Of a stretch of DNA of 64,000 bases, positions 6,301 to 27,877 are shown piece after piece. Each line of letters opens with the position of its first letter. Position 1 is the stretch's first letter. The notes below the pieces were generated by a model. It was not told the origin of the DNA, made no database searches, and was given only the letters and a program-made list of their open reading frames with translations. Position numbers and translations under genes: made by a program. The DNA comes from Cyanobacteria bacterium P01_F01_bin.150 (GTDB lineage Bacteria > Cyanobacteriota > Cyanobacteriia > CAKZMO01), in contig JBCCYL010000029.1 in assembly GCA_039189765.1 (NCBI GenBank), positions 1 to 64,000 on the forward strand, in the 5' to 3' direction.

Positions 6301-6432
6301 GATGGAAATGTGTTGCGCAGCATTCGAGGAGGCAATATTAACTTACCAGAAGCCGTCACCAGTGAAATCTCTATGGATTTATCGCATCCATTTTATTGGT
6401 CTGCTTTTACGATGGTTGGTAGTCCTTGGTAA
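322..6432 (+). CDS. Filamentous haemagglutinin-N (TPS secretion domain) protein with beta-helix repeats and C-terminal CHAT (caspase-like) domain
   Basis: Signal peptide; NLFHSF..F and LMNPAGIVFG TPS motifs; Gly-rich GG.I.L repeats; Ser/Pro linker; CHAT motifs HLATHG, LSACRTA, HPFYWSAF. Confidence 0.9.
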   Translation: MKRFSELMLCSSLGISFLLGLPLSVFINIHCAKAQITSALDGTASQVDISGNRIDISGGRLSSDRANLFHSFEEFGLTSEQIANFQVDVDIQNVLGRIVGGNASIIDGLIQVTGGDANLYLMNPAGIVFGANAQLNVSGDFTATTATSIGIDDQWFHSVGEVQYDSLVGSPSQFAFTDFSVTTDGHAFGSIVNMGDLALEPTQHLMLLGGLVINAGTLQVPGGTITVAAVPNDNLVRISQENMVLNLEMTSLEQEAGESVTPINPVPFSPLSLPELLTAGGPDAAADIQVLANGNIQLTGSELEVPLTDGTTIASQTIDTSSSLPITDSSTIQVLGEAIAVINGNITASGPEQGGRVYIGGNFQGQGPLPNAERLFIDKGSHLEASTFKNGDGGTVIVWADQSTQFYGTIDAHGGSQTGNGGFVEISGEDWLDFQGTVDTTALNGATGTLLLDPRNIRIVAPGDETVNSSATFVVFSDEPPTTTIASDTIESATTDVILQANNDIVVDDDIDTTANGNTPSLTLQAGRSIDINASIRLQDGSFIATINDEDADPVQREQGVATFSLAPGQIIETIGAGNVSIEHGTFESTHLSSFDSGEIVLEGDLITDSGDITLNGTGGVPINGEIASQGIGVTIFDANIQTDTGTITINGVGGGTTTGTAPRGTGVWINSSSTVEAVTSGALNLQGTGGNGENDNSGIQVDGSLSINNGSLTLEGHGGGFADGNAVPGSGILLNSGSQIELINSTATLTGFSGAGNSSVSVAGIDASDFNLTLDDSNVTFDGQYDHFLNGQHAGISLERGFINDFNDSSLTISGAVKQGDGIGVYLADTTINASDITIDGIGDSTDFDMSGVDIQNSTISADNDLLITGDANAEGINVGDSNISTVIGTLQLTTNNIRLDNAVLGGSDVLHIQPLDANHDISLVEIAGTGAGLELDRTELAAIEDGFSEIQIGRADGTGVITAIGDVFFPAPVLLQSPQDNGRIDTAAASLSSHHSLGNGSIEFLADGDIIVRDLSTGLTLGIGEEEPIVDGDGPMSTGINSVILNTRQGITVQGMIDVSSTDAIDGGSIVLEAGETIQITEEGFLNASGVTDRGPEQDGGIIQLTSGSDIVSRGFLQAAALNVDGDAGSGGVVTIRADGTIQLADIDVSSHATNGLGGEGGLISLEAGQAIAIDGLLDTSSQSDGDESGSGGAITAAAIDDLSWFGNWDTTSEANNIGGDVTLTSESGRLLLSLFTADNDSDRQSGAVTLTAQNNLSLDIEHIGAENPVLSSTGSPIALTSNNGAIQITSTTGTPFTLATEGASLSISGTDLNLANVNFSTASAIEPGGELTLQASTGAIATGNLDSSGTSGGNINVLATTAITTGAIDASGSQSNGGNVLLDPSGDIQVGFINTEGGVNGVGGKVDITTESLFRATDTFMTQDGQVASISSNGGQGSGDIIIRYGSGMDTPFIIGESMLHGTAGIVTTGSNTLVAGESFLGAVTRGNIKLETVGDTSDNPSAPNTIEPLATADTLSSTPQVSTDTPSSNQNNPSNSTAPNSPSSQRPNEPNRSQDAAFHNLQTPLIGLLSQSHPLVQTEGQHSAPHEADGNFSSGFEQHVAMDSFAIELESMGDLEEGIVDDFSNHFELPVVAPIVSVGDAQNTLRQIQSHTGVSPAVIYAQFVSSQSPSALTNEAKNNDLLIHGSDQLELMVVSSAGLPTRIRVDGATRNKVERVVRQFQNDITNPARRHSDRYLASAQTLHQWLIAPIEATLIDEGIENIAFVLDNGLRSLPMAALHDGERFLIEKYSVGMMPSLSLTDTRYVDTRDLGILAMGASEFEQQAPLPAVPVELAAITEDIWQNGEYFLNKDFTIENLKAQRQEQPYGIVHLATHGEFRAGTPENSYLQLGDRTLHLNELRELGLNDPTVELLVLSACRTALGDDSAELGFAGLALQAGVKSVMASLWYVSDAGALGLTTEFYRQLRETPIKAEALRQAQLAMIRGDIALDGNVLRSIRGGNINLPEAVTSEISMDLSHPFYWSAFTMVGSPW
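509..516. repeat. HIP1 octamer GCGATCGC (one example; dozens across the window)
   Basis: Recurrent palindrome typical of cyanobacterial genomes. Confidence 0.9.
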
Positions 6433-6681
6433 TGCGACACTAATCAAGAAGAACATCCTAAAATACGCATAATTACGCATGAAAGATATGGGAAGGCTCA
6501 GACTATTATAGATAAAACTGCATCTTTTAATAAGAAGCGAGAAAACTATTTTTCCGATTCTAGATGTAGGTGCTATTTTATATGAATTTTTATTTAAGTA
6601 ATCCTAGTTAAGGAGATGGCCTGCATATCTATTTTTCTTTTATTGCGATAAAAATGGATAGAGCAACCACGCAGAGGTAAG

Positions 6682-8724
6682 GTGGTGGATCAATATAATT
6701 GGGAACAACTCACATCTCAGCAAACTTTAGCAGCTATTGCCCAGGCTGCAATGGAAAAGTCTCCTGCCTCTCGAAAAAAAATTGAAGAAGTCTTGCAGGT
6801 ATTATCAAGTACGTTAGCCAACCTACAGGGCACGACGGATGAGTTGCGTGAACAGCATGACGTGTTGATTGATTCATATCGTAATATTGCTGAATATTCT
6901 CATCATTATCAGCATGTCTTTGCGCAGGCCCCTCAAAGTCTTGTCATTACTGATGAAGAGGGCAAAATTCAAGATTTGAATTTTGCGGCCATTCAATTAT
7001 TGGGCGATCCGTTAGGGAAAAACGGAGAAAATGCAGGAACATCTTGTCATGTTGATCGAACCGCTTTACTTGAACAATCGCTCCAATCGTTTGTTGCGCC
7101 GGAATCAGTTCAGGTATTTGCTCAATATTTAGAGGATGTTCGTCGGCTGTCCCCTATTAAACAGGCATCTTTGCCATCGATTCAAGTTTTAATTGACCCG
7201 ATATTGGGACAACAGCAGTGGGTGCATATCTCGGCTCGATGTATCTCTGCTGTTTTGAATGAAGGTCGGGTGATCAGTTGGGCAATAACTGACATAACGG
7301 ATGTGTCGCAGACGGAGTTTGCTTTAAAGCGACAGATCCAAGAGATTCACCAAAATTATGCGGATATCCAGAGGGCTAATCAAGCTCTAGAGAAGACGGT
7401 TCAGGCTAAAAGCTCGCAGGTTTTGAAGGCCACTGAATTTGAATCCACGCTGAAACGAATTACAGATAAGGTTCGAGACTCCCTAGACGAAAGTAAAATT
7501 CTACAAACAGTGGTAAGAGAGCTGTCTATCGTTTTGCGTTTAGGCGGTTGTAATACTGCTTTATATGATCTAGACAAAGGAATTTCAACCATTTCCTATG
7601 AGTACACCAACTTCATTTCTGCTTATCGTGGGAAAGTTGCTCAGATGGATAAGTTTCCTGAAATCTATAATCAATTAAAGCAGGGAAACTATTTTCAGTT
7701 TTGTTCCCTGATTCCCAATCCAGAACGGGGGCATGTGTCGCTACTAGCCTGTCCGATTTTTGTAGATTCTGAAACAGAAGAAGCCATCGCAGAAGCGCAT
7801 GAATCTGACTCAAAAGAACCGCCCAACAATGGGATGAGTCGGGAAAAAGTGCTGGGTGATCTTTGGCTTATTGATCGTAAAGAGCATGTATTTAATGAAT
7901 TTGAAATTCGTTTGGTGCAGCAGGTCGCTAACCAGTGTGCGATCGCGATTCGACAAGCTCGCCTCTATAAGGCAGCACAAGCACAAGTTCATGAGCTAGA
8001 AAAATTGAACCGTCTTAAAGATGAATTTCTGAGTACCGTTTCTCATGAGTTGCGGACCCCCATCTCAAATGTAAAAATGGCCATTCATATGTTGAAGAAT
8101 GCTCCTACTGAAGAAAAACGGCAGCAGTATCTGAAAATTTTAGAGGCAGAGTCTCAGCGAGAAGCAGATCTAATAGACGATCTGTTAGATCTACAGAAAT
8201 TGGAGGTTTCTACATATTCAATTTCAGCTAGAACTCTTCAAATTGGTCCTTGGTTAGAAAGTATCACTCAACCTTTTAAATCGCGGATGGAGTCTCAGCA
8301 GCAGCATATGAGCATAGGGTATTCAACGCCCAGGCGAACCTTAAGAACCGACTTTGGTGTTTTGGAACGTATCCTGGTTGAACTGTTGAATAATGCCTGT
8401 AAATATACTCCATCCGGTCACAAAATCCAGGTCCAAGTCTATGATGAAGGCGATGAGGAAAAGAACGGCGCTGATTTGAACTTGCTAGTGTCTTCATCTA
8501 CAGTCTTCAAAGTCAGTAATCAAGCAGAAATTACGGAAGATGAACTGCCGCATATTTTCGATAAATTTTATCGTATTCCCCATTCAGACCCTTGGAAGCA
8601 GGGGGGCACAGGGTTAGGGTTGGCTCTGGTTCAAAAGCTGGTGGAACAAATTCAGGGCAAGATAGAGGTTAGTAGCCTGGATGGATGGACTCATTTTACA
8701 GTGAGCATTATCCATCACGATTAG
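6682..8724 (+). CDS. PAS-GAF sensor histidine kinase
   Basis: H-box VSHELRTP, N-box ELLNNACKY, G-boxes GGTGLGL; GAF ending QQVANQCAIAIRQARLY. Confidence 0.9.
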   Translation: MVDQYNWEQLTSQQTLAAIAQAAMEKSPASRKKIEEVLQVLSSTLANLQGTTDELREQHDVLIDSYRNIAEYSHHYQHVFAQAPQSLVITDEEGKIQDLNFAAIQLLGDPLGKNGENAGTSCHVDRTALLEQSLQSFVAPESVQVFAQYLEDVRRLSPIKQASLPSIQVLIDPILGQQQWVHISARCISAVLNEGRVISWAITDITDVSQTEFALKRQIQEIHQNYADIQRANQALEKTVQAKSSQVLKATEFESTLKRITDKVRDSLDESKILQTVVRELSIVLRLGGCNTALYDLDKGISTISYEYTNFISAYRGKVAQMDKFPEIYNQLKQGNYFQFCSLIPNPERGHVSLLACPIFVDSETEEAIAEAHESDSKEPPNNGMSREKVLGDLWLIDRKEHVFNEFEIRLVQQVANQCAIAIRQARLYKAAQAQVHELEKLNRLKDEFLSTVSHELRTPISNVKMAIHMLKNAPTEEKRQQYLKILEAESQREADLIDDLLDLQKLEVSTYSISARTLQIGPWLESITQPFKSRMESQQQHMSIGYSTPRRTLRTDFGVLERILVELLNNACKYTPSGHKIQVQVYDEGDEEKNGADLNLLVSSSTVFKVSNQAEITEDELPHIFDKFYRIPHSDPWKQGGTGLGLALVQKLVEQIQGKIEVSSLDGWTHFTVSIIHHD

Positions 8725-18060: not shown

Positions 18061-21000
18061 ATGTCCCAAAGTGTAGCCTCCGAAAACGAACGAACTCTGA
18101 AAACACTCTGCCGCACAATTCGTTTAACTAGTCAACGCAGATTTGAACTCATCATTGTACGGTGTAACTATCAAAAACTACAGAAAAGACTGTTATTCCA
18201 GTTGCACAAAAATTGCCCCATTCCTTTTGAGGAATTGGCACTACCAAGAACATCCCAAACCCTATATACGTTAATTGAGACCTCTTATACAGAAAAATGG
18301 CCAGAGGCTCTTTGTGTTTGGGGGTTTGAGGAAGTAGACGATTTAGAGACTCTATTATTAGCGACTAATCAAGTTAGGGAAGAATTTAGAAAAAACTTCA
18401 AATTTCCATTAGTCCTATGGTTAAATGATCAGATTCTAACTGAATTAATTCGGCTTGTTCCTGATTTTTATAGTTGGGCAACGCCGCTATCTTTTAATCT
18501 GTCTAATCAAGAATTAGTGGATTTGATCAAAAGTAGTTCTGATACCTTATTTGAACATGCTTTTAACGCCAGCGATCAGTATCCAGTCAGAAAAACTGTT
18601 TTGGAACTAGCCGTTAATGCCCCTAAGTTGCAAGAGCTTAAAATTGCTAAAAATGAGTTAGAAAATCGAAATTATCCCCTAGAGGCTGAACTACAAGCGA
18701 GTATTAACTTAGCATTAGGGCGTGATTTCTATCGTCGAGATCAATTGGGTAAAGCTGAGGAAAAATACCAACAAAGCCTTGCCTATTGGGCAGATACTCA
18801 ACAAACTCAACGATCGGCTATGGTTTTATTCCACCTCGGTCTTTGTTATTGGCGTAAAGCCTATCTTGAACGATTAGCGCCGGAAATGTGTTGGAAATTA
18901 GCTAAAAAGTGCTTTGCAGATTGCTTAGAGAGTTTAGAGAGTTTAGACGCAGATCAATCGCAACGGCTTGTTGCTAATTTTATTGGCCAACTCGGTGAGG
19001 TATTGCAGCAGCTTGGCGAATGGGATGCACTCCAAACGTTAGCAGAAAATTCTTTAAGGTTACACCAAAAATTTTCCCATCCAGCAAGATTAGCCAGAGA
19101 TTGGGGATTTCTGGCATCGATTGCTCTGCATCACTCTGACTGGGACAAAACGTATCTCAATGCCCAAAAAGCGCTGCAAGCTTTGGAGGACTCAAGAGAA
19201 GGCGATCGTCAACGTAAAGGACTATATTTATGGCTCTTGGCCCAGGCTCAGAAACAGCTTGGGGCAATTGATGGGGCGATCGATAGCTTGGAAGCTGCAA
19301 AGAAAACGGGCCAGTTCCAAAATGATCCGCTCATTTATATTCAAATTTTAAAGGCATTACGTGATCTTTATTTTCAACAAGGTCGCTATATCGAGGCGTT
19401 TGATGTTAAACAAGAACAACAAGCGGTTGAAAGCCAGTATGGGTACCGGGCTTTTATTGGAGCTAGTCGCTTACGGCCATTACGGGACGTTGGATTAGCC
19501 TTACTAGCGAGTGAACCATCGGAGGCGATCGCCCAAGAATTATCGGTTTCAGTCCGCCATCAGGACATCAGCAGTTTGTTGGAACGACTGGCACGCCCTA
19601 ATTATAAATTGACCATTATTCACGGTCAGTCTGGAGTTGGCAAAAGTTCTATGATGAGCGCGGGTTTGGTGCCTACGCTCAAGCACAAAATTATGAATAG
19701 TCGTGACGTTGTCCCCGTTTATTGCCAGTTTTATGGCAATTGGGAAGAGCACCTATGCCAATGTATGAATATAAGCCTAGAACCCTATCCAGATGCACGG
19801 AGAAAAGAATTAAAATCGTCGCTTGATATTCTCCACCAAATCCGTCGTAATGATACTCAAAACCTCTTGACAGTATTAATTTTTGATCAGTTTGAAGAAT
19901 TTTTTATCAACTGCGAGACACCAAATAAGCGTAGACCTTTCTTTGATTTTTTAAACCAGTGCTTTCAACTTCCTTTTATCAAAGTTTTACTAGTCCTTCG
20001 AGAAGACTACTTACACTATCTACTAGAATATGAACGGCTTCCTAGCAATAGCTATATTACTCAAAATATTCTCAAGCAAACAAATCGTTTTGAACTGATC
20101 AATTTTTCTGAAGAAGATACAAAAGAGATTATCACTAGATTAACGGAACGATCAAGTATTACTTGGGAACCTCAACTCGTTGATGCTGTTGTTCATGATT
20201 TAGCTCAAGAGCAAGGAAGTATCCGCCCTATTGAATTACAAATTGTTGGTGCTCAACTTCAAGCTGAAAATATTAATACTCTCTCTGCCTATGAAGACAA
20301 GGGAACAAAAGATAAATTAGTTCAGCGCTATTTAGAAACAGTTGTTGAAGACTGTGGCCCTGAAAACAGGAAAGCGGCTAATTTAATATTATATCTCCTG
20401 TTAGTAGATAAGGATACACGTCCACAACGAACAAAAGAAGAAATTGGAATAGAGCTAAAAAGATTAGCTATTGACTTGATTGAAGAATCAAATCGTCTAG
20501 ATTTAGTGCTCCAAATATTTGTCAAATCAGGTTTAGTTTTCCTTCTTCCAGAGACTCCTTCCAGTAGATATCAACTTGTTCATGATTATCTAGCTACCTT
20601 TATTCGGCGTCAGCAGCAACCTGATATCAATGCACGGATTGCACATTTAGAACGTGAGAAGAAAAATCTTAAACAGGTTATCACTGCATTAGAACAAGAA
20701 CAGGAACAACGTTTTAAGACGGAAGAAGAACTTAATGCAACTGCTAAAGAACTTACTGTAACAGCACAAGAACTGAAGAAAACGGCACATACTAATAAAG
20801 AGACTAAGAAGAGGCTAGCAGTTTGGTCAGGAGTTTTGGGAGTGGCTTTTTTAGTTGTATCAGCTCTAGGATTAACGGCCTACTTTAGGTTGCAACAAAC
20901 ACGTACGGAGTTTGATCTAGAACAAAAAAGTTGGGAAGCTTTACAACAGTTTCACACTCAACCACTACAAGGCTTAATTGCAGCCATGAATGTGGGTATT

Positions 21001-23001
21001 CAATTTCAAGAATTTAAAGACAAAAATAGTGAAACGACCCTTACGACTCCCATCTTTGCGCTACACAAAATGCTGAGCAATATCCGGTTACAGAACACGC
21101 TCGCTGCACATGATGCTGAAATCTATGCAGTAGCTTTCAATGACAGTAGCAATCATTATCTTGTAACAGGTTCACAAGATACAACAGCTCGACTGTGGAA
21201 TTTAAAGACAGGTGATAGTATTCCTTTAGAGGGGCACGAGAAAGCAGTTCTTGATGTGAGCTTTAGCCCTCAGGGTCAGCATATTGCGACGGCATCCGCA
21301 GATGGAACGGTTAAATTTTGGAACTATGATGGCACAATCCATCATGAGTGCTCAATGCAGGATGATGTTTTGAGTATTGATTTCAAAAAAAATGGAGACT
21401 TTATAGCTGCTATTGGAAACGGGAAACTCCAACTTCGAAAACCAGAATGTGAACTAATTTCTGAAGGCATCACAGAGTCAAAAACACCTGTCTTTAGTAT
21501 AGACTTTAGTGATGACGAAAGCATGCTTGTAGCAGGCGATGAAAAAGGCAGTGTTAGTATCTGGCAAGTGAGTCAAAATGCTCTTAGCCAACTCAAAAGT
21601 TTAAACCTCCATAATCAGTCGGTGGAAGATGTAGCATTCAGTCCTGGCGACAGCAGTGTTGTAACAGTTTCCTCTGACGGTACAGGTAATATTTGGCGTC
21701 TTCAAGATGATGACATTTTGAACTTTGAGGCAAAAGGTGCCCCAATAAGAAGTATTACTTCAATATCTTCTCAGCGTAGCCGAGAAGATATTGTAACTTC
21801 TTCAGATGACAACATGGCTAGGCTATGGGATCTTCAAGGACAAGAAAAATTTAGCTTTAAAGGTCATAGGAATGTCGTTAGAGATGTTGCCTTTGATTCA
21901 ACAACACAAACTTTAGCAACAGTTTCTGATGATAGATCGGTTAAACTGTGGAACTTAAATAATAATCTATTTAGACCTAGAAGAATCAACCTTCTTCACG
22001 AGTCCATTGATGCTTCTAATATTAATGTTTCTAGTGTCAGCTATGATAATAATCTGTTGGCAGCATCTTCTGGGCACGGTACTATTTATATTTTAGATTT
22101 CAGAAGCAATACTATTCTAGCTAGTTTTTCACCTTATATAAATCAAAACAGAGATGAAAAACACCACATACTTGACCTTAAGTTTCATCCAAGAAATTAC
22201 ACACTTGTGACTGCTTCAAATTATGGTCAAGTGATTCTATGGTCACAACATGGGGAAAAAATTAAGGAACTCCAAAAATCTTATTACCCTAATTTTCAAG
22301 ATACAAAGTTAGCATTTGATTCTACTGGTACTCAGGTAGCAATTGCAAATTCAGAAGGTACAGTTCGTATTGTAAACCTTGAGGGTGAAAGCCTTGACCA
22401 ACAGAAGCTCCATAATGAGAAAATCACAGATATTAAATTCAACAATGATGGTGGTATTATCGTTACAGCATCCGTAGATCAAACAGCCTGTTTTTGGCAA
22501 CTGGATACATTACCTGTCTGCAGTGAAAAATATGGAAGTCAGCTTGTTAGTGTTGCTATTAATCCAGAAAATACTTTGGTTATTTCTGATTTAGAAGGGA
22601 CAATTAATATTTGGCACCCGACTAAACAGCAGTCATCAAATACCGATGATATTGTGTCCTCCAGCACCCGCTCTATCAACGACATTATTTTCGATAAAAG
22701 CGGTAGATTTGCAACTGCCTCAGCCGATGGTTCCGCAGCTCTATGGTCAGGAGAGGGTAAACCTCTAGCAGAATTTCAAGGACATCGGACACCCGTCCAG
22801 AACATCTTTTTTACTAATGATGCTCAAGAACTATTGACGATTTCTAGTGATGGTCAAATTCGTCAATGGGAAATTCAAAGTCTTGATGATCTTTTAAACG
22901 AAGGATGTGAGTGGCTCTCCAATTACTTAAGATTTAGGAAAAATAGCAAGCCTACAGAGGAGCAAAAAATAGTTAATTTTTGCTCCTCCATCTCAGATTA
23001 A
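18061..23001 (+). CDS. Large STAND (nSTAND1-like) NTPase: N-terminal degenerate NTPase-like region, TPR, NTPase, coiled coil, TM helix, WD40 repeats
   Basis: GQSGVGKSS Walker A, LIFDQFEEFF Walker B, YQLVHDYL; hydrophobic LAVWSGVLGVAFLVVSALGL; many GH...W[DN] repeats. Confidence 0.85.
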   Translation: MSQSVASENERTLKTLCRTIRLTSQRRFELIIVRCNYQKLQKRLLFQLHKNCPIPFEELALPRTSQTLYTLIETSYTEKWPEALCVWGFEEVDDLETLLLATNQVREEFRKNFKFPLVLWLNDQILTELIRLVPDFYSWATPLSFNLSNQELVDLIKSSSDTLFEHAFNASDQYPVRKTVLELAVNAPKLQELKIAKNELENRNYPLEAELQASINLALGRDFYRRDQLGKAEEKYQQSLAYWADTQQTQRSAMVLFHLGLCYWRKAYLERLAPEMCWKLAKKCFADCLESLESLDADQSQRLVANFIGQLGEVLQQLGEWDALQTLAENSLRLHQKFSHPARLARDWGFLASIALHHSDWDKTYLNAQKALQALEDSREGDRQRKGLYLWLLAQAQKQLGAIDGAIDSLEAAKKTGQFQNDPLIYIQILKALRDLYFQQGRYIEAFDVKQEQQAVESQYGYRAFIGASRLRPLRDVGLALLASEPSEAIAQELSVSVRHQDISSLLERLARPNYKLTIIHGQSGVGKSSMMSAGLVPTLKHKIMNSRDVVPVYCQFYGNWEEHLCQCMNISLEPYPDARRKELKSSLDILHQIRRNDTQNLLTVLIFDQFEEFFINCETPNKRRPFFDFLNQCFQLPFIKVLLVLREDYLHYLLEYERLPSNSYITQNILKQTNRFELINFSEEDTKEIITRLTERSSITWEPQLVDAVVHDLAQEQGSIRPIELQIVGAQLQAENINTLSAYEDKGTKDKLVQRYLETVVEDCGPENRKAANLILYLLLVDKDTRPQRTKEEIGIELKRLAIDLIEESNRLDLVLQIFVKSGLVFLLPETPSSRYQLVHDYLATFIRRQQQPDINARIAHLEREKKNLKQVITALEQEQEQRFKTEEELNATAKELTVTAQELKKTAHTNKETKKRLAVWSGVLGVAFLVVSALGLTAYFRLQQTRTEFDLEQKSWEALQQFHTQPLQGLIAAMNVGIQFQEFKDKNSETTLTTPIFALHKMLSNIRLQNTLAAHDAEIYAVAFNDSSNHYLVTGSQDTTARLWNLKTGDSIPLEGHEKAVLDVSFSPQGQHIATASADGTVKFWNYDGTIHHECSMQDDVLSIDFKKNGDFIAAIGNGKLQLRKPECELISEGITESKTPVFSIDFSDDESMLVAGDEKGSVSIWQVSQNALSQLKSLNLHNQSVEDVAFSPGDSSVVTVSSDGTGNIWRLQDDDILNFEAKGAPIRSITSISSQRSREDIVTSSDDNMARLWDLQGQEKFSFKGHRNVVRDVAFDSTTQTLATVSDDRSVKLWNLNNNLFRPRRINLLHESIDASNINVSSVSYDNNLLAASSGHGTIYILDFRSNTILASFSPYINQNRDEKHHILDLKFHPRNYTLVTASNYGQVILWSQHGEKIKELQKSYYPNFQDTKLAFDSTGTQVAIANSEGTVRIVNLEGESLDQQKLHNEKITDIKFNNDGGIIVTASVDQTACFWQLDTLPVCSEKYGSQLVSVAINPENTLVISDLEGTINIWHPTKQQSSNTDDIVSSSTRSINDIIFDKSGRFATASADGSAALWSGEGKPLAEFQGHRTPVQNIFFTNDAQELLTISSDGQIRQWEIQSLDDLLNEGCEWLSNYLRFRKNSKPTEEQKIVNFCSSISD

Positions 23002-23018
23002 ATGTAGCGTTATAATCT

Positions 23019-23288
23019 CTACCAATTAGACCAATTGTTCCAATTAGACCAGTTTCCCCAGTCAAACCTTCGAGATTGAGGTAGCACTTTACCCTTGACA
23101 TAATCTAAATCCCAACCATAGCCTAATGATTGTTTTCTTACAGTCTCGACCCTTTCTCTAACCGAAGTATTTGATTTGACTGTGGCACTTTCTGCCCTAG
23201 AATTGAAGATATTAGTAATAGGGTAAAGTACAATTTGCGAAATTAAAATGGTGCTAAGGAGTCTGTAAATTTTATTGATTCTAATCAT
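23019..23288 (-). CDS. RiPP precursor peptide B (GrrA/OscA-like), core WGNWSNWNNWSNW
   Basis: Hydrophobic N-terminus, leader VRERVETVR, C-terminal tandem WxN; ATG at 23288 preferred (ORF extends to 23312). Confidence 0.8.
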   Translation of the reverse strand: MIRINKIYRLLSTILISQIVLYPITNIFNSRAESATVKSNTSVRERVETVRKQSLGYGWDLDYVKGKVLPQSRRFDWGNWSNWNNWSNW

Positions 23289-23781
23289 GGGGGACAGTTT
23301 GAATAACGACAATATTGATTGCGATACATTTTAATTATCCATATAATACAGTTAGTACAAGACGTGAATGTGACACTAGAGCAAACTGCCTAAATTTTCT
23401 CTAGAGTTAGCCTGAAGGCTATTGATTGAAGGAAAACATTGGCTATCTTACAGTAGTCAAAACTAAAATTGTCACACAAACAGAACATAGAGCTTGTCAA
23501 GTTGAAATTAACCAACAAGGCCATCAAAATGTCATCCTGAATCTAGTATTGGATAATTCTCATATACACATATACGAAAATCTACTAGCCTTACAGGAAA
23601 TTACTCTAACTTTTCATGAACTCCCTCATTCTTTTATTAGTTCGCAAGAACTATTTATGGATTTGGATAGTAGCCCCTAGGAAAAAACTTGTAAAATACT
23701 AAGAATTTTCTACCAATATCAAACACCTTTATCATTACATACTAAATAGCTTTCATCGCTTATTTGCCCCTGAAAAATAGA

Positions 23782-23826
23782 AGAAACGCCAGCCTCTTCA
23801 AAAATGTACTCAAAGCTGACGTTTCT
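23782..23826. terminator. Imperfect hairpin between the two precursor genes
   Basis: AGAAACGCCAGC ... GCTGACGTTTCT. Confidence 0.3.
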
Positions 23827-24049
23827 AATAAATTTGGTAGCTCAGCCTGGAAAAAAGTAATAATACCTTGTCTCAGTCAAGAGCTTTGACAACTTGATGG
23901 ATTGCCTCAAGTGCGATCGCTTTTCACCTAAATTAGTTCGCATAAACAGATTTAGGCACAAACAAAACTAAAACGGTCCACACAATATCAGAGTTCTAGT
24001 GCTAATCTGAGCAATCAATTAATGGTTTATTTGTTCTAGTGAAATAGAA

Positions 24050-24388
24050 TTACCAATTATCCCAGTTGCTCCAGTTAGCCCAGTTAGCCCAGTTGTTCCA
24101 TGCGGCTTTAACTATTCGCTCTGAGTTCAGCGCTAGTGAGTAGTTTTCTGATGCAGGAATATGGTGTCCCTGCGATAAATCGTTGGCCTTATTAAACTGA
24201 GAGCTATCATTATTTTTACGAACTCGGTTAATACGTGATTTCAACTCCTGTTCTTGATGTTCTAGAGAATATTCGCTTCGGCTATAGGCAAGTGTAGCAA
24301 CATTGTCAGTCAGTATCAGAGATACAGCGGCCACGCAAACAGTTAAAAACGGTGCGAAAAGTCCTGTTAGAGAAGCTTTTTGGTTCAT
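24050..24388 (-). CDS. RiPP precursor peptide A (GrrA/OscA-like), core WNNWANWANWSNWDNW
   Basis: Hydrophobic N-terminus, leader LKSRINRVR, five tandem WxN triplets then W and stop; downstream of the rSAM gene on the same strand. Confidence 0.85.
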   Translation of the reverse strand: MNQKASLTGLFAPFLTVCVAAVSLILTDNVATLAYSRSEYSLEHQEQELKSRINRVRKNNDSSQFNKANDLSQGHHIPASENYSLALNSERIVKAAWNNWANWANWSNWDNW

Positions 24389-24440
24389 GAGAAATCAATG
24401 GGGGACGAAATGGTTACTATTGCTCTTTCAACCTTAGGAA

Positions 24441-24470
24441 TTGTGGTAAATCCTCAAGGATTTACCACAA
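24441..24470. promoter_or_regulatory. Perfect 14-bp inverted repeat upstream of precursor A
   Basis: TTGTGGTAAATCCT-CA-AGGATTTACCACAA. Confidence 0.5.
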
Positions 24471-24583
24471 ACTTAAAACTTGAAGGAGCACTACATTAAT
24501 ATTCGCTTATGCAATTATAGTTGCGAACGAAAGTACCGCCCTCAGTGACTTGTCTCACACGTAAGCGGTTCGAGTATTTAAGG

Positions 24584-25480
24584 TTACAGTTTAAAGTGTC
24601 CCCTGATTGTTAGCTGAACATCGGAGTGATTTTGGTCTAAGGTAGACCCCTCGTGAAGAATATTCTCTGTGGGAGCAATGTAGGCTTCTCCGGGAGAAAT
24701 GCGTACTTTTATTACTGGATAGTTTGGGTAACGTTTTGCGAAGGCATTCTTCAACGTCAGCGGAGAGACTTTGCTTAAACTGAGGCGATTTTTATAGAAC
24801 AGATTGCGTCCTTTCCACTGCACTTGTCTCGATATTTTTAAACTATTTTCTGGGAGGAACTCTGGATGACGCAACACTATTAACATGTCTATTAGGGTGA
24901 GGTTGATGAAGAGGAAGTGGCGATCGCTCTCCCCCAAATTAATGCAAATCCGATTGGTTGATTGATGACGATATTGCAGAGGTAACCGATCCCAACTGTC
25001 CAGATGCAGGCCAATGTAGTGGCCTGCTGTCGGATTGATTGTAACAGTTGGTAAATTGGGCCAGCTAATGCCAATACCCGCTAGAGTTGGCTCTCCTTTA
25101 TTGCAGTGGGATTTGAAAAACGTCAAGATCGGTTCAGTTGCTTTCCCATACTCCGGTGTGCTGAGCTGGTGATTATCGTCGGGAGTCAGTTGACTGATAT
25201 TCAATTGACGTAGAGGAGCCAAAATATGGTCTGGAACCGAGAAGATTCCGACAGTCCGACTGTAATCACTGGCTTGACGATGGGTGATTAACGTTTTGGA
25301 TTGTTCTGATGATAATTCTTGCCATGTATCTTGTGGAATATAGGCATCTTTGGAAAAGGCGAGATTAGGGAAGTGGTCGGCAGTAGGTTGTTGGATGCCT
25401 GAATTAATCCATACACGAGATTTAGATACGTCCAACGTGGAATCAAGGTACAGTTGAACGCTATCCAGAAGCTGAGTCAT
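24584..25480 (-). CDS. Putative Fe(II)/2-oxoglutarate-dependent oxygenase-like protein (RiPP tailoring candidate)
   Basis: GLHLDSWD (HxD), ENILHEGS (distal His), QLTIRGHF (Arg); ATG at 25480, 46 nt after the rSAM stop. Confidence 0.6.
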   Translation of the reverse strand: MTQLLDSVQLYLDSTLDVSKSRVWINSGIQQPTADHFPNLAFSKDAYIPQDTWQELSSEQSKTLITHRQASDYSRTVGIFSVPDHILAPLRQLNISQLTPDDNHQLSTPEYGKATEPILTFFKSHCNKGEPTLAGIGISWPNLPTVTINPTAGHYIGLHLDSWDRLPLQYRHQSTNRICINLGESDRHFLFINLTLIDMLIVLRHPEFLPENSLKISRQVQWKGRNLFYKNRLSLSKVSPLTLKNAFAKRYPNYPVIKVRISPGEAYIAPTENILHEGSTLDQNHSDVQLTIRGHFKL

Positions 25481-25526
25481 AATGCAACCATTAACGAAGG
25501 GGACTAGCACTACATTCTTTGCCCCA

Positions 25527-26747
25527 TCAGACTGTTGCTTTACTCTTTTCCATTGATGGGGCTGACGAAGGTACCTGAATTGCAAAGGTTTCTTCTAAAT
25601 CCGCAAGAACAATGTCCGTGAGGATTTTCTTCGTATATTTACAATACATTGTTTCGGAAGAATTAAAGGAGCCGTTTTCAAAATACTTATTGGACGGTGC
25701 GCCTCCGCCACACACGGAGAAGTACTCACATGTTTTTTTACACAACGACACTCCAGCCTGGATATCTCGGTTCATGTGCTTGAATTTTGGAGTTTGACAC
25801 ACCTTATCAAAGGATTGATTTACGATATTTCCTAAAATAAAATCGCCATAGACCTCACTGTCCATAGATAGAAGTTCAGGCGAAAATGTTGAAAAATCAC
25901 CATTATAAGCAATATTAAGCATGGTGAAGGGCGTAAACTGGCCTCGTTGAATATTGGTTTTGCCCAAAATGGATTGTTTGGTTTCCTCTAGTTCTCTAAT
26001 TTGCAGTACGCCAGGGTTTTCTTTGGTGAGGGCCAACATGCGTATCATAAACGCCTTATATTTTTGTGCGCTATCGTCTGACGACAACGAAGATGCTTGG
26101 TGTGTGCCTTCCATTTCATCGATATTGAAGCCCACTTGCTGAATATTTTGATCTACAAAGAACTGAAACAGCTCATCAGGATAATCAAGACCATCACGAG
26201 TTAGGACGGCAATAACGTGGAAAGGGATATTGTGCTGTTGCAGTAAACGAACCCCGCGCATGGTGTACTTATAACTGCCCAATCCTCTGCGGGTTAAGCG
26301 ATAGGCATCATGTAAAAATTCTGGACCATCTAGACTCACACCAATACGGATGCCGTAGGTTTTGATTAAATCACACCATTGATCATTGATGAGTGTTGCA
26401 TTTGTTTGGATCGCGTGGGTAATGAGGCGTAACCCCATTGGAGAGTTCTGATTCAGTTGTTCGATCTTTTCAAACGTTGTTTGGTAGAACTTGACAGGCA
26501 TGGTTAAGGGTTCCCCTGCGTGCCAAACCACTGTAAATTCTGAATCTAAAAACTGACTCTGAAACAGATGGGTAAAGATAGGTTCAAGCAAGTCTAGAGA
26601 AAATTCGTGCTTGAGATGGCGATCGGGTAAATAACAATAACTACAGTTCAGGTTACAAAAGGTGGTGGGTTGAATGATAACCAGTTGGATTGGACCATAG
26701 TTTTTGCGACCATGAAACCATGTGGAGACGGTATCAAGCAAACTCAT
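25527..26747 (-). CDS. grrM: Cyclophane-forming radical SAM/SPASM maturase, GrrM/OscB family
   Basis: LVIIQPTTFCNLNCSYCYLP, WHAGEPL, GVSLDGP.FLHD, FSTFSPELL, CKKTCEYFSVCGGGAPSNKYFENG...TETMYC-like SPASM motif; ATG at 26747. Confidence 0.9.
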   Translation of the reverse strand: MSLLDTVSTWFHGRKNYGPIQLVIIQPTTFCNLNCSYCYLPDRHLKHEFSLDLLEPIFTHLFQSQFLDSEFTVVWHAGEPLTMPVKFYQTTFEKIEQLNQNSPMGLRLITHAIQTNATLINDQWCDLIKTYGIRIGVSLDGPEFLHDAYRLTRRGLGSYKYTMRGVRLLQQHNIPFHVIAVLTRDGLDYPDELFQFFVDQNIQQVGFNIDEMEGTHQASSLSSDDSAQKYKAFMIRMLALTKENPGVLQIRELEETKQSILGKTNIQRGQFTPFTMLNIAYNGDFSTFSPELLSMDSEVYGDFILGNIVNQSFDKVCQTPKFKHMNRDIQAGVSLCKKTCEYFSVCGGGAPSNKYFENGSFNSSETMYCKYTKKILTDIVLADLEETFAIQVPSSAPSMEKSKATV

Positions 26748-26869
26748 AGGATTGGGGCGGTGTAAAGGACAACAAGGTAATATGTTATTCCTCTCTACAG
26801 TGTCATAGTTCTGTCCTCCTGAACACAAAACTATGACAGTTATTATCTTTATAATAGTATGCGAGCTTT

Positions 26870-27379
26870 TTACAGATTAAGACGTTTTGTCATCCAAAGG
26901 GATTGGGGTTTGTAATCGAGCTGATGATACATGCTGAGGGCGATGTAATTATCTGTGAAGACTTGTAGGCTAATTTTGCGATCGCCCCTTTTCATCGCCC
27001 ATTGTTCAGCTTTGTCCATCAACGCAGTGCCGATCCCTTGTCGGCGATACTTAGGATAGACGTATAGCAGAAAAATGTAAGCGTGGCGATCGCCTTCAAT
27101 CTGATCAATCGCATCCCCCAACCACAAACAGCCTACTGCCGTTTGACATGAGGACCGCGCAGATAATGAAAGAGTCGGTATTGGTGAAGGTGACTGGATG
27201 TACACCCACCATAGAGGCGTATCACTAGATAAGTACTGATCGACCGTTTGGACAAGATGAGTGACGGGTTGTTTAGGATGAAGCTCTTGATAGGTCTTCT
27301 GCATGACTTTTACCAGAGACGCCCGATCCAAACTAGAGCCTCTGGTAATCTCATAACCTGGACATAATTCGTTAGCCAT
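26870..27379 (-). CDS. GNAT family N-acetyltransferase
   Basis: YVYPKYRRQGIGTALM acetyl-CoA motif; ATG at 27379. Confidence 0.88.
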   Translation of the reverse strand: MANELCPGYEITRGSSLDRASLVKVMQKTYQELHPKQPVTHLVQTVDQYLSSDTPLWWVYIQSPSPIPTLSLSARSSCQTAVGCLWLGDAIDQIEGDRHAYIFLLYVYPKYRRQGIGTALMDKAEQWAMKRGDRKISLQVFTDNYIALSMYHQLDYKPQSLWMTKRLNL

Positions 27380-27629
27380 TCTGAACTGCGTCTTTGTCCG
27401 ATGCGGGTGGAAAAGAGGAAAACTGAGCAATGGCCGTAGAGAAGGGAATGCTTGCCTGGGTAACACCAGAATTTGAATCACTACCATGCTTCATGGTCGT
27501 TGGTTCTTCTATCGGTGCGGGCGCAGCTAAATCACTGGGTAAAAAGATTCGAGCACTCACTGCAATCATCGCAACCAAGAAAATTAATACAATAAAGAAT
27601 GGCGCGACGTACTGACGAATAAAGGACAT
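27372..27629 (-). CDS. Small single-TM cyanobacterial protein
   Basis: RQYVAPFFIVLIFLVAMIAVSARIFLPSD; overlaps the GNAT start by 8 bp. Confidence 0.7.
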   Translation of the reverse strand: MSFIRQYVAPFFIVLIFLVAMIAVSARIFLPSDLAAPAPIEEPTTMKHGSDSNSGVTQASIPFSTAIAQFSSFPPASDKDAVQNG

Positions 27630-27877
27630 ATCTCTAACCTACTAGTTGAACAACCAAAAAAGTGGGCTATTGCTCGAAGCCTGAATATCAGCGCTGTTGC
27701 TGAATACACCCTGATTATAGTACCAAGAAACTGCCCTATATTTTCTGGTTAGGCTCAAATATACTAGCTGTCTGGAGTTTTGCTGAAAGGTGAGTTGTAA
27801 CTCAATGGTCGTTCAAAATTCAGAGCGCTATAAAATGCTAGAGGGCGATCGCGTTTATATAGCCCTGATACCTGGTT

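What the first reader, a model, noticed from the sequence alone, without database searches (positions are those of the whole stretch)
24584..25480. Unannotated HxD...H...R protein inside the RiPP operon: candidate new tailoring oxygenase
Seen: GLHLDSWD, then beta-strand-like RICINL..RHFLF, PGEAYIAPTENILHEG, and a C-terminal QLTIRGHF. Known: HxD...H plus a distal Arg is the facial triad and 2OG-binding pattern of DSBH Fe/2OG dioxygenases; halogenases replace the Asp with Ala/Gly, so hydroxylation is more likely. Inference: sitting between the maturase and the precursors, it may modify Asn, Asp or Trp of the cyclophane peptide, and it is not an HExxH-type enzyme.
Basis: partly seen in the sequence, partly recalled or inferred. 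Interest (0 to 1): 0.75.

Follow-up and report, generated by a model that had tools for sequence, protein, structure and literature searches.

The report
MicC-type iron oxygenase in cyclophane-peptide operon
The gene encodes an iron- and 2-oxoglutarate-dependent oxygenase that sits between a ring-forming enzyme and its two tryptophan-rich peptide substrates; its family was first described in 2026, but what this branch does to the peptide is still unknown.

Summary
It lies between a GrrM/OscB radical-SAM cyclophane synthase and two W-x-N-repeat precursor genes.

The Fe(II)/2OG oxygenase reading is right:
- The AF2 model (pLDDT 92) matches only DSBH Fe/2OG enzymes.
- H159, D161 and H276 are invariant or nearly so in 219 homologues.

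It is not a new family. It is a full-length homologue of MicC (PDB 9VKM; E 3e-29, family profile 3.6e-66). MicC is the triceptide-tailoring oxygenase published in PNAS in February 2026; it cuts its peptide at a Gly and leaves a C-terminal amide.

The invariant 2OG-binding Arg is R187, equivalent to MicC R188.

This branch differs from MicC in several ways:
- The partner rSAM is of another type.
- The precursors have no follower peptide and no shared Gly site.
- No ADP-ribosyltransferase lies among the adjoining genes.
- Essential MicC K266 is Gln here.

Among GrrM loci the oxygenase is optional, and it goes with acidic W-D-N cores (15 of 20 against 1 of 20).

Best guess for the reaction: hydroxylation of the ring Asp/Asn, about 0.4. 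Backbone cleavage as in MicC is the main rival, about 0.3.

It is a new member of a known kind, and its chemistry is open.

The parts
24584..25480 (-). MicC-family Fe(II)/2-oxoglutarate oxygenase, 298 aa (P0001)
   Evidence: Open frame. PDB 9vkm_A matches at E 3.3e-29 over residues 4-296; the family profile matches it at 3.6e-66. AF2 model pLDDT 92.2. DSBH Fe/2OG fold matches.
24998..25006 (-). Codons for H159-L160-D161, the HxD part of the iron-binding facial triad
   Evidence: Aligns with MicC H160/D162. H is kept in 219 of 219 homologues, D in 218 of 219.
24920..24922 (-). Codon for R187, the predicted 2OG C5-carboxylate-binding Arg
   Evidence: Aligns with MicC R188, which is essential there. 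Kept in 219 of 219 homologues.
24653..24655 (-). Codon for H276, the distal His of the facial triad
   Evidence: Aligns with MicC H253. Kept in 217 of 219 homologues; the other two are gaps.
25527..26828 (-). GrrM/OscB-type radical SAM/SPASM three-residue cyclophane synthase. The likely start is the Met near 26750.
   Evidence: TIGR04261 at 4.9e-159, 529 bits against a cut-off of 310. PF04055 and PF13186 also hit.
24050..24388 (-). Precursor peptide 1, 112 aa. It has a hydrophobic N-terminus and the core WNNWANWANWSNWDNW at the C-terminus.
   Evidence: ORF and translation. Similar W-x-N repeat precursors lie next to GrrM genes in related loci.
23019..23312 (-). Precursor peptide 2, 97 aa from the TTG start, with the core WGNWSNWNNWSNW at the C-terminus
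   Evidence: ORF and translation. tblastn matches to precursors in L003, L005, L043 and L081.

Best explanation
The ORF encodes a cytoplasmic Fe(II)/2-oxoglutarate oxygenase of the MicC family. I put this assignment at about 0.9. In the proposed mechanism, H159, D161 and H276 hold the iron and R187 anchors the C5 carboxylate of 2OG. Oxidative decarboxylation of 2OG then gives an Fe(IV)=O that abstracts a hydrogen from the peptide and returns OH.

Its substrate is most likely one or both of the W-x-N-repeat precursors encoded just downstream, after the GrrM/OscB rSAM has cross-linked each Trp to the Asn two residues on. This order is inferred from MicC, which accepts only the fully pre-modified peptide.

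The reaction I commit to is side-chain (beta) hydroxylation of the middle Asp/Asn of W-D-N and W-N-N rings. That would give beta-hydroxy-Asp/Asn inside the cyclophanes. The confidence given here, 0.4, is for this specific outcome.

Shown: fold, catalytic residues, family, gene context, and the link with acidic cores. Inferred: activity, order of steps, site and outcome.
For: Family and fold:
- 9vkm_A (MicC) matches at E 3.3e-29 over residues 4-296. The profile of 45 homologues matches it at 3.6e-66.
- The AF2 model has pLDDT 92.2 and pTM 0.91.
- Foldseek gives 14 PDB hits at E <= 1e-3, led by KdoO, then JMJD5, WelO5 and OrfP.
- Catalytic residues are conserved in 219 homologues.

Link to rSAM peptides:
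- 59 of 80 homologue loci hold an rSAM/SPASM gene.
- 7 of the 8 family representatives of 600 aa or more carry an N-terminal Radical_SAM domain.
- The partner rSAM type tracks the oxygenase tree: 8 label changes against 41 in shuffles.

Site:
- In GrrM loci the oxygenase is optional. It lies within 6 kb in 4 of 80 loci, and in a fifth across a contig break.
- It goes with acidic cores. Asp/Glu is at the middle position in 15 of 20 distinct cores from genomes that hold the oxygenase, against 1 of 20 from loci without it.
- 16 of the 17 cores from loci that hold the oxygenase have Asp or Asn at the middle position.
- MicC is strictly Gly-specific (G8A is not cleaved; PMC12912966 section 7), yet core 1 here has no Gly.
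- A clade in the same major group of the tree has the oxygenase gene abutting a sulfotransferase gene (its end, 6852, is the next gene's start), which would fit an OH product.
Against: - No activity, product mass or expression data exist for this gene or any GrrM-linked homologue.
- The only characterised member, MicC, hydroxylates a backbone C-alpha and not a side chain.
- The acidic-core association is not corrected for shared ancestry. About five lineages carry it. The acidobacterial clade (L018 and relatives) has the oxygenase but no Asp in its cores. Precursor 2 of this window has no Asp inside a W-x-N unit.
- Only 10 of the 76 'without' genomes were checked genome-wide, and several are incomplete MAGs.
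- MicC K266, essential there, is Gln289 here. 2OG binding may therefore differ, and I could not inspect model coordinates.
- Asn at the middle position is as common in cores without the oxygenase (23% of motifs).
Confidence: 0.4

Rival explanations
1. The chemistry is the same as MicC's. The enzyme hydroxylates a backbone C-alpha of the cyclised precursor. The resulting hemiaminal collapses and breaks the N-C-alpha bond, leaving an upstream fragment with a C-terminal amide. Possible sites are the unpaired C-terminal Trp/Tyr (which would give an Asn-amide end), a Gly inside W-G-N units, or the leader-core junction.
For: - MicC, the only characterised family member, does exactly this at Gly8, and the activity depends on 2OG and Fe (PMC12912966 sections 7 and 9).
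- The triad, R187, F189 and Y267 all match the MicC residues H160, D162, H253, R188, F190 and Y244.
- No protease gene lies in the compact operon.
- Nearly all GrrM-type cores end in one unpaired aromatic residue.
- Gly is the second most common middle residue in cores that come with the oxygenase, at 22%.
Against: - MicC needs Gly (G8A is inactive), and core 1 here has no Gly.
- There is no follower peptide to remove.
- The terminal aromatic residue and W-G-N units are as common in GrrM cores without the oxygenase (15% Gly), so neither feature explains why the gene is present.
- MicC's essential K266 is not conserved: it is K/R in only 7 of 219 homologues.
- MicC needs prior ADP-ribosylation, and none of the five adjoining genes is an ADP-ribosyltransferase.
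Confidence: 0.3
2. It acts on the cyclophane peptide with some other oxidative outcome. Candidates are hydroxylation of Trp (indole or beta carbon) or of the cross-linked Asn, desaturation, or epimerisation.
For: - Fe/2OG enzymes with this fold catalyse many outcomes. The nearest folds include hydroxylases, a halogenase, a desaturase/epoxidase and carbocyclases.
- Trp and Asn are the only residues common to every core that comes with the oxygenase.
- The MicC paper itself expects functional diversification among homologues (Discussion).
Against: - Trp and Asn are equally universal in cores without the oxygenase, so they do not explain its patchy presence.
- There is no direct evidence for any of these outcomes.
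- Halogenation is unlikely because Asp161 is kept in 218 of 219 homologues.
Confidence: 0.2
3. It is not part of the peptide pathway. It would be a neighbouring oxygenase acting on a small molecule or another protein, or an inactive relic.
For: - In 21 of 80 homologue loci no rSAM gene was found within 6 kb; 18 of these are one Microcoleus/Kamptonema clade.
- The gene's activity and expression are untested, and no RNA run was listed.
Against: - The gene sits 46 nt after the rSAM stop and before the precursors, on the same strand.
- The same trio recurs in cyanobacteria, Bacteroidota, Acidobacteriota and others.
- Fusions with rSAM domains exist.
- All catalytic residues are intact.
- MicC acts on its cluster's peptide.
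Confidence: 0.07

Closest known systems
MicC, the alpha-KG-dependent non-haem iron oxygenase of the minviopeptin (mic) triceptide cluster of Mucilaginibacter inviolabilis. PDB 9VKM; Guo et al., PNAS 2026, PMC12912966 (outline, MicC passages, section 9 and SI text search read).
   Same: - Full-length sequence homology: E 3.3e-29, and 3.6e-66 with the family profile.
- DSBH fold.
- Triad H159/D161/H276 matches H160/D162/H253; R187 matches R188, F189 matches F190 and Y267 matches Y244.
- No Pfam or NCBIfam model covers it.
- It is encoded next to a three-residue-cyclophane rSAM and a small precursor gene.
   Different: - The partner rSAM is GrrM/OscB type (TIGR04261), where the mic cluster has a PasB-like enzyme.
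- The precursors are long W-x-N repeat peptides that end at the core. They have no follower peptide, and core 1 has no Gly.
- No ADP-ribosyltransferase lies among the adjoining genes.
- MicC's essential K266 is Gln289 here. An Arg (R293) sits four residues later, where MicC has Glu.
- A stretch of about 30 residues of low model confidence (about 205-235) is largely absent from MicC in the alignment.
- The host is a cyanobacterium. The paper's text names Actinomycetota and Bacteroidota only.
KdoO (Kdo 3-hydroxylase; PDB 5YKA, 6A2E, 5Y9I) and KanJ (7CL2), the nearest solved folds other than MicC
   Same: - The MicC paper names the same two as MicC's structural neighbours.
   Different: - Sequence identity is 12-15%.
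- They act on sugars and aminoglycosides, not peptides.
- The sequence searches give no sign of common ancestry closer than the superfamily.
alpha-KG-HExxH hydroxylases of triceptide and related RiPP clusters. These are cited in PMC12912966 as auxiliary enzymes; PflC/PosC are in PMC12636437, of which only the abstract in the search listing was seen.
   Same: They are 2OG-dependent oxygenases that tailor rSAM-made peptides, by beta-hydroxylation or oxidative backbone cleavage.
   Different: They have a different fold and metal site. This protein has no HExxH motif and a DSBH model.
Peptidyl Asp/Asn beta-hydroxylases of the DSBH superfamily: FIH, AspH, and CinX of cinnamycin. Their roles are recalled from memory. 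FIH structures appear in the fold lists.
   Same: They share the superfamily fold and an HxD...H triad, and they act on Asp/Asn in folded peptides. This is the chemistry proposed here.
GrrM/OscB triceptide systems. OscB links Trp C7 to the C-beta of Asn or Asp (one passage of the review PMC11002830 read).
   Same: The rSAM here scores 529 bits on TIGR04261. The precursors carry W-x-N units that fit the reported OscB cross-link.
   Different: Within 6 kb, 76 of the 80 GrrM loci sampled have no MicC-like gene; one of these, L088, proved to have it across a contig break. The oxygenase is an optional addition, found with acidic cores.

Membership tests
MicC family of alpha-KG/Fe(II) oxygenases (PDB 9VKM) | Full-length sequence homology to MicC | tested here: met
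   phmmer gives E 3.3e-29 over query 4-296 and chain 22-293. The profile of 45 homologues gives E 3.6e-66, 226.6 bits.
MicC family of alpha-KG/Fe(II) oxygenases (PDB 9VKM) | [quoted passage not shown] | tested here: met
   H159, D161 and H276 align with them. They are kept in 219, 218 and 217 of 219 homologues.
MicC family of alpha-KG/Fe(II) oxygenases (PDB 9VKM) | Arg188, which binds the 2OG C5 carboxylate (essential in MicC) | tested here: met
   R187 aligns with R188 and is kept in 219 of 219 homologues.
MicC family of alpha-KG/Fe(II) oxygenases (PDB 9VKM) | Lys266, the second basic 2OG contact (essential in MicC) | tested here: not met
   The aligned residue is Gln289. This column is K/R in only 7 of 219 homologues, and R293 four residues later is kept in 159 of 219. 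Lys266 looks like a feature of MicC's own branch and not of the whole family.
MicC family of alpha-KG/Fe(II) oxygenases (PDB 9VKM) | Double-stranded beta-helix fold | tested here: met
   AF2 model with pLDDT 92.2. Foldseek and VIA-align give Fe/2OG DSBH enzymes almost exclusively. 9VKM itself was not in the Foldseek list.
MicC family of alpha-KG/Fe(II) oxygenases (PDB 9VKM) | Encoded beside a cyclophane-forming rSAM and a small precursor ORF | tested here: met
   The rSAM gene ends 46 nt upstream, and two precursor genes lie downstream on the same strand.
MicC family of alpha-KG/Fe(II) oxygenases (PDB 9VKM) | MicC's reaction: N-C-alpha cleavage at a Gly before a follower peptide, after ADP-ribosylation | tested here: not met
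   On sequence grounds only. Core 1 has no Gly and neither precursor has a follower. None of the five adjoining genes is an ADP-ribosyltransferase; the rest of the window was not scanned for one. The reaction itself cannot be tested here.
MicC family of alpha-KG/Fe(II) oxygenases (PDB 9VKM) | Fe(II)- and 2OG-dependent activity | not testable with these tools
   This needs an enzyme assay.
alpha-KG-HExxH RiPP hydroxylases | HExxH metal-binding motif | tested here: not met
   A regular-expression search of P0001 finds no HExxH.
Fe/2OG halogenases | Ala or Gly in place of the carboxylate of the triad (HxA/G) | tested here: not met
   Asp161 is present, and it is Asp in 218 and Glu in 1 of 219 homologues.
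GrrM/OscB triceptide gene cluster (the context) | rSAM/SPASM above the TIGR04261 cut-off, plus precursors with aromatic-X-X units | tested here: met
   TIGR04261 scores 529.2 bits against a cut-off of 310. The cores are WNNWANWANWSNWDNW and WGNWSNWNNWSNW. The precursors do not match any NCBIfam precursor model at E <= 1.

The most novel reading that the evidence does not exclude
The oxygenase works iteratively on the tandem array. One possibility is that it places a beta-hydroxyl on every ring Asp/Asn, turning the repeat peptide into a poly(beta-hydroxy-Asp) metal-binding cyclophane chain. The bolder possibility is that it cuts the backbone between successive W-x-N rings. One precursor would then release 4 to 13 copies of a three-residue cyclophane amide: multi-copy small-molecule production by oxidative rather than proteolytic excision. 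Either way, this branch of the MicC family would have a reaction and a substrate logic not yet described.
Probability: 0.12. Interest if true: 0.8.

Novelty: new member of a known kind. Interest (0 to 1): 0.45.

Why it matters
The MicC family has one characterised member, and no Pfam-A or NCBIfam model in the copies searched matches this protein. This gene shows the family also serves the widespread GrrM/OscB W-x-N triceptides, in cyanobacteria, Bacteroidota and Acidobacteriota, where MicC's own substrate features are missing. The family must therefore hold at least one more substrate specificity, and possibly another reaction.

The link between the oxygenase and acidic W-D-N cores gives a concrete hypothesis that a three-plasmid co-expression experiment can test. 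The result would tell genome miners how to predict the final structures of a large class of cyclophane peptides. It would also add either a peptide hydroxylase or a second oxidative 'protease' to the peptide-engineering toolbox.

Tried and rejected
- **Family libraries.** Pfam-A and NCBIfam scans of the ORF gave nothing at E <= 1.
- **9VKM by fold.** It did not appear in the Foldseek PDB list, so the link to MicC rests on sequence.
- **Expression.** One DNA run holds the stretch, possibly the source sample, and no RNA holder was listed. No reads were laid.
- **Promoters and terminators.** The scan of 22800-27700 found counts near the shuffle means (17 against 11.4; 5 against 3.6) and was not used.
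- **GNAT gene 26870-27487.** I considered it as a cluster member. It weakly resembles the cyclophane-RiPP acetyltransferase HaaN (E 1.1e-3, 18.9 bits against a cut-off of 250). tblastn found no copy in any of the 163 related loci searched, so I rejected it.
- **Precursor features that might mark the oxygenase's site.** The terminal unpaired aromatic residue, Gly at the middle position and Asn at the middle position are all as common without the oxygenase.
- **Oxygenase pI against core charge.** Values run from 5.8 to 9.1 with no pattern.
- **Earlier notes of this scan near the locus.** None were found.
- **Complex prediction.** I did not run one for oxygenase with precursor, because MicC recognises only the pre-modified peptide, which cannot be modelled here.
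- **Tree.** The careful search did not finish in 300 s, so the quick IQ-TREE result is what I cite. Rows L064 (583 aa) and L101 (97 aa) were dropped.
- **Literature.** Searches for a characterised GrrM/OscB-linked oxygenase found only the MicC paper. Its main text and SI text contain no 'cyanobact', 'Nostoc', 'OscB' or 'GrrM'. Its figures S52 and S53 are images I could not read, and they may show such clusters.

Full report
**1. What is there**

Window 24584-25480, read on the minus strand, is one open frame of 298 codons plus a stop.
- GLHLDSWD at residues 157-164
- RICINL..RHFLF at 177-191
- PGEAYIAPTENILHEG at 263-278
- QLTIRGHF at 289-296

The ATG at 25480 matches the N-termini of homologues. 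The frame could extend to a TTG at 25585, but that would overlap the upstream gene.

The upstream gene on the same strand, 25527-26828, is a radical SAM/SPASM enzyme. It scores 529 bits on TIGR04261, 'cyclophane-forming radical SAM/SPASM peptide maturase GrrM/OscB', against a cut-off of 310.

Downstream on the same strand lie two small genes:
- 24050-24388 ends in WNNWANWANWSNWDNW.
- 23019-23312 ends in WGNWSNWNNWSNW.

According to a review passage, OscB links Trp C7 to the beta carbon of Asn or Asp two residues on (PMC11002830, one passage read). These peptides are therefore arrays of W-x-N ring units.

A GNAT gene at 26870-27487 is adjacent, but tblastn found it in none of the 163 related loci searched, so I do not count it as part of the cluster.

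**2. It is an Fe(II)/2OG oxygenase**

Pfam-A and NCBIfam give no hit. A sequence search of the PDB finds one strong match, 9vkm_A, 'alpha-ketoglutarate-dependent non-heme iron oxygenase MicC'. The E-value is 3.3e-29 and the match covers residues 4-296. A profile of 45 homologues matches it at 3.6e-66.

An AlphaFold2 model built on that alignment has mean pLDDT 92.2 and pTM 0.91. Only residues around 205-235 have low confidence.

- Foldseek against the PDB returns KdoO first (E 2.2e-5), then JMJD5, WelO5, OrfP and FIH.

KdoO and KanJ are the same neighbours that the MicC authors report for MicC.

**3. Catalytic residues**

The MicC paper (PMC12912966; I read the outline, the MicC passages, section 9 in full and a text search of the SI) shows several things. 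H160, D162 and H253 form the facial triad and each is essential. R188 makes a bidentate contact with the 2OG C5 carboxylate. R188A and K266A are inactive. The deposited chain is numbered 20 higher than the paper.

In the HMMER alignment the pairs are:

| This protein | MicC |
|---|---|
| H159 | H160 |
| D161 | D162 |
| H276 | H253 |
| R187 | R188 |
| F189 | F190 |
| Y267 | Y244 |
| Gln289 | K266 |

In 219 near-full-length homologues collected and aligned:
- H159 is kept in 219.
- D161 in 218 (one Glu).
- H276 in 217 (two gaps).
- R187 in 219.
- The K266 column is K or R in only 7.

R293 sits on the last strand, where canonical enzymes often place their Arg. It may help in this branch, but I could not inspect coordinates.

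There is no HExxH motif. The conserved Asp argues against a halogenase.

**4. The family and its company**

The exhaustive search finds 1278 cluster representatives at E <= 1e-3, and 141 at E <= 1e-30. Every named homologue among the 120 listed is 'hypothetical protein'.

I fetched 80 loci from species-representative genomes and typed the nearest rSAM by tblastn with three reference enzymes:

| Partner rSAM | Loci |
|---|---|
| GrrM-like | 30 |
| DynA-like | 22 |
| YhhB/FxsB-like | 7 |
| None within 6 kb | 21 |

Of the 21 without an rSAM, 18 form one Microcoleus/Kamptonema clade. There the oxygenase gene abuts a TPR-sulfotransferase gene, with its end at 6852 being the next gene's start.

Seven of the 8 representatives of 600 aa or more carry an N-terminal Radical_SAM domain, and L040:4741-6897 is such a fusion.

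On a quick maximum-likelihood tree of 82 rows, the partner type needs 8 label changes against a shuffled mean of 41. The window's protein groups with the cyanobacterial GrrM-linked proteins L001, L002, L003 and L005 (SH-aLRT 91). Two rows were dropped for length.

In a sample of 401 genomes of the window's phylum, 12 have a match, in 7 of 156 genera. The window's own genome has a single copy.

**5. Which feature of the peptide goes with the enzyme**

Starting from GrrM instead (546 relatives, best 80 kept), only 4 of the 80 loci have a MicC-like gene within 6 kb. The oxygenase is therefore an optional extra.

I compared the W-x-N cores:

| | With the oxygenase | Without |
|---|---|---|
| Distinct cores | 17 | 23 |
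| Asp at the middle position (share of units) | 34% | 4% |
| Cores with an acidic middle residue | 13 | 3 |
| Cores with a basic middle residue | 2 | 18 |

I then searched ten of the 'without' genomes in full. Two hold the oxygenase elsewhere, and these are two of the three that had acidic cores:
- Leptolyngbya sp. PCC 7375 has it at its second GrrM locus.
- A Chryseobacterium MAG has an assembly break inside the repeat precursor. Contig L163 carries the oxygenase and the 5' half of the precursor; contig L088 carries the 3' half and GrrM.

After this correction, acidic middle residues occur in 15 of 20 cores with the oxygenase against 1 of 20 without. Fisher's exact test gives p about 1e-5, but this is not corrected for shared ancestry, and only about five lineages carry the signal.

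There are exceptions. The acidobacterial clade has the oxygenase but no Asp, and precursor 2 here has no Asp inside a unit. The terminal unpaired aromatic residue, Gly and Asn at the middle position are as common without the enzyme.

**6. How it most likely works**

*Shown:* fold, metal and 2OG ligands, family membership, operon position, and the association with rSAM maturases and with acidic cores.

*Inferred:* the enzyme takes the GrrM-cyclised precursor (MicC takes only the fully pre-modified peptide), makes Fe(IV)=O from O2 and 2OG, and hydroxylates a peptide C-H.

For the site I favour the middle Asp/Asn of the rings, by beta-hydroxylation, at about 0.4. The reasons are the core association, MicC's strict need for Gly, which core 1 lacks, and the sulfotransferase-coupled clade in the same major group of the tree.

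The main rival, at about 0.3, is MicC-type C-alpha hydroxylation followed by N-C-alpha scission and amidation. Another oxidative outcome on the peptide gets about 0.2. No role in the pathway gets under 0.1.

**7. Comparison and novelty**

This is a member of the MicC family. It passes every family test except the MicC-branch residue K266. It lacks the substrate features of MicC's own reaction: a Gly site, a follower peptide, and an ADP-ribosyltransferase among the adjoining genes.

The paper's text reports MicC homologues next to rSAM genes in Actinomycetota and Bacteroidota and expects functional diversification. Neither its text nor its SI text mentions cyanobacteria, OscB or GrrM. Figures S52 and S53 are images I could not read.

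My literature searches found no characterised GrrM-linked oxygenase. I therefore rate it a new member of a known kind with open chemistry.

Noticed in passing
L004:5168-8045 (also L006, L016 and 15 more Microcoleus/Kamptonema loci): In one clade of oxygenase homologues no rSAM gene was found within 6 kb. The oxygenase gene (L004:6001-6852) abuts a TPR plus sulfotransferase gene (6852-8045; PF00685 at 1.5e-18). It is preceded by a 190-220 aa protein of no known family that ends in CSHCSHCTHCTH. This may be a hydroxylate-then-sulfate pathway on an unknown substrate.
   Followed up: partly
L011:4237-10118 (Nostoc sp.): A Nif11-leader precursor is followed by a DynA-like rSAM/SPASM, two tandem MicC-like genes (5980-6873 and 6926-7915) and two JmjC-domain genes (PF08007). 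That makes four predicted oxygenases in one RiPP cluster.
   Followed up: partly
L040:4741-9110; proteins P0123, P0149, P0176, P0192, P0200, P0203, P0236: Natural fusions exist with an N-terminal rSAM/SPASM maturase and a C-terminal MicC-like oxygenase. L040 has two large rSAM genes in tandem (719 and 738 aa). The first holds the oxygenase match; the C-terminal half of the second was not examined.
   Followed up: partly
L088:1-194 and L163:2-268: A Chryseobacterium MAG assembly breaks inside the W-D-T/W-N-T repeat precursor gene, splitting an oxygenase-precursor-GrrM locus over two short contigs. Counts of gene co-occurrence taken from MAGs will miss such loci.
   Followed up: yes
window 24284-24388 (precursor 1 N-terminus); L001:4116-4210: The W-x-N precursors start with a hydrophobic segment that looks like a signal peptide; L001 reads ...GGFVSGVAKA/DTS. 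This suggests export after cytoplasmic modification. No signal-peptide predictor was run.
   Followed up: no
window 26870-27487 (-): A GNAT acetyltransferase gene sits directly upstream of the rSAM gene. It resembles the cyclophane-RiPP acetyltransferase HaaN only weakly (18.9 bits against a cut-off of 250), and tblastn found it in none of the 163 related loci searched. It is probably an unrelated neighbour.
   Followed up: yes
window 18061-23001 (+): A 1646-aa ORF converges on the precursor genes. By eye it has an N-terminal TPR-like region, a P-loop (GQSGVGKS) and many C-terminal WD40-like repeats, like a NACHT/STAND-type protein. No search was run on it.
   Followed up: no
L018:6880-9095 (Acidobacteriaceae) and L044:5947-10910 (Mucilaginibacter): Other MicC-like clusters carry further tailoring genes. 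L018 has a tetrapyrrole-methylase-like methyltransferase and a di-haem peroxidase (PF06537). L044 has two MicC-like genes, a phosphoesterase (PF04185) and a lantibiotic dehydratase (PF04738).
   Followed up: no
P0001 residues 205-235 (window about 24776-24868): The only low-confidence part of the model (pLDDT 55-76) is a stretch that is long in the window's closest relatives and short or absent in MicC and most other clades. It may be a substrate-binding lid specific to this branch.
   Followed up: no
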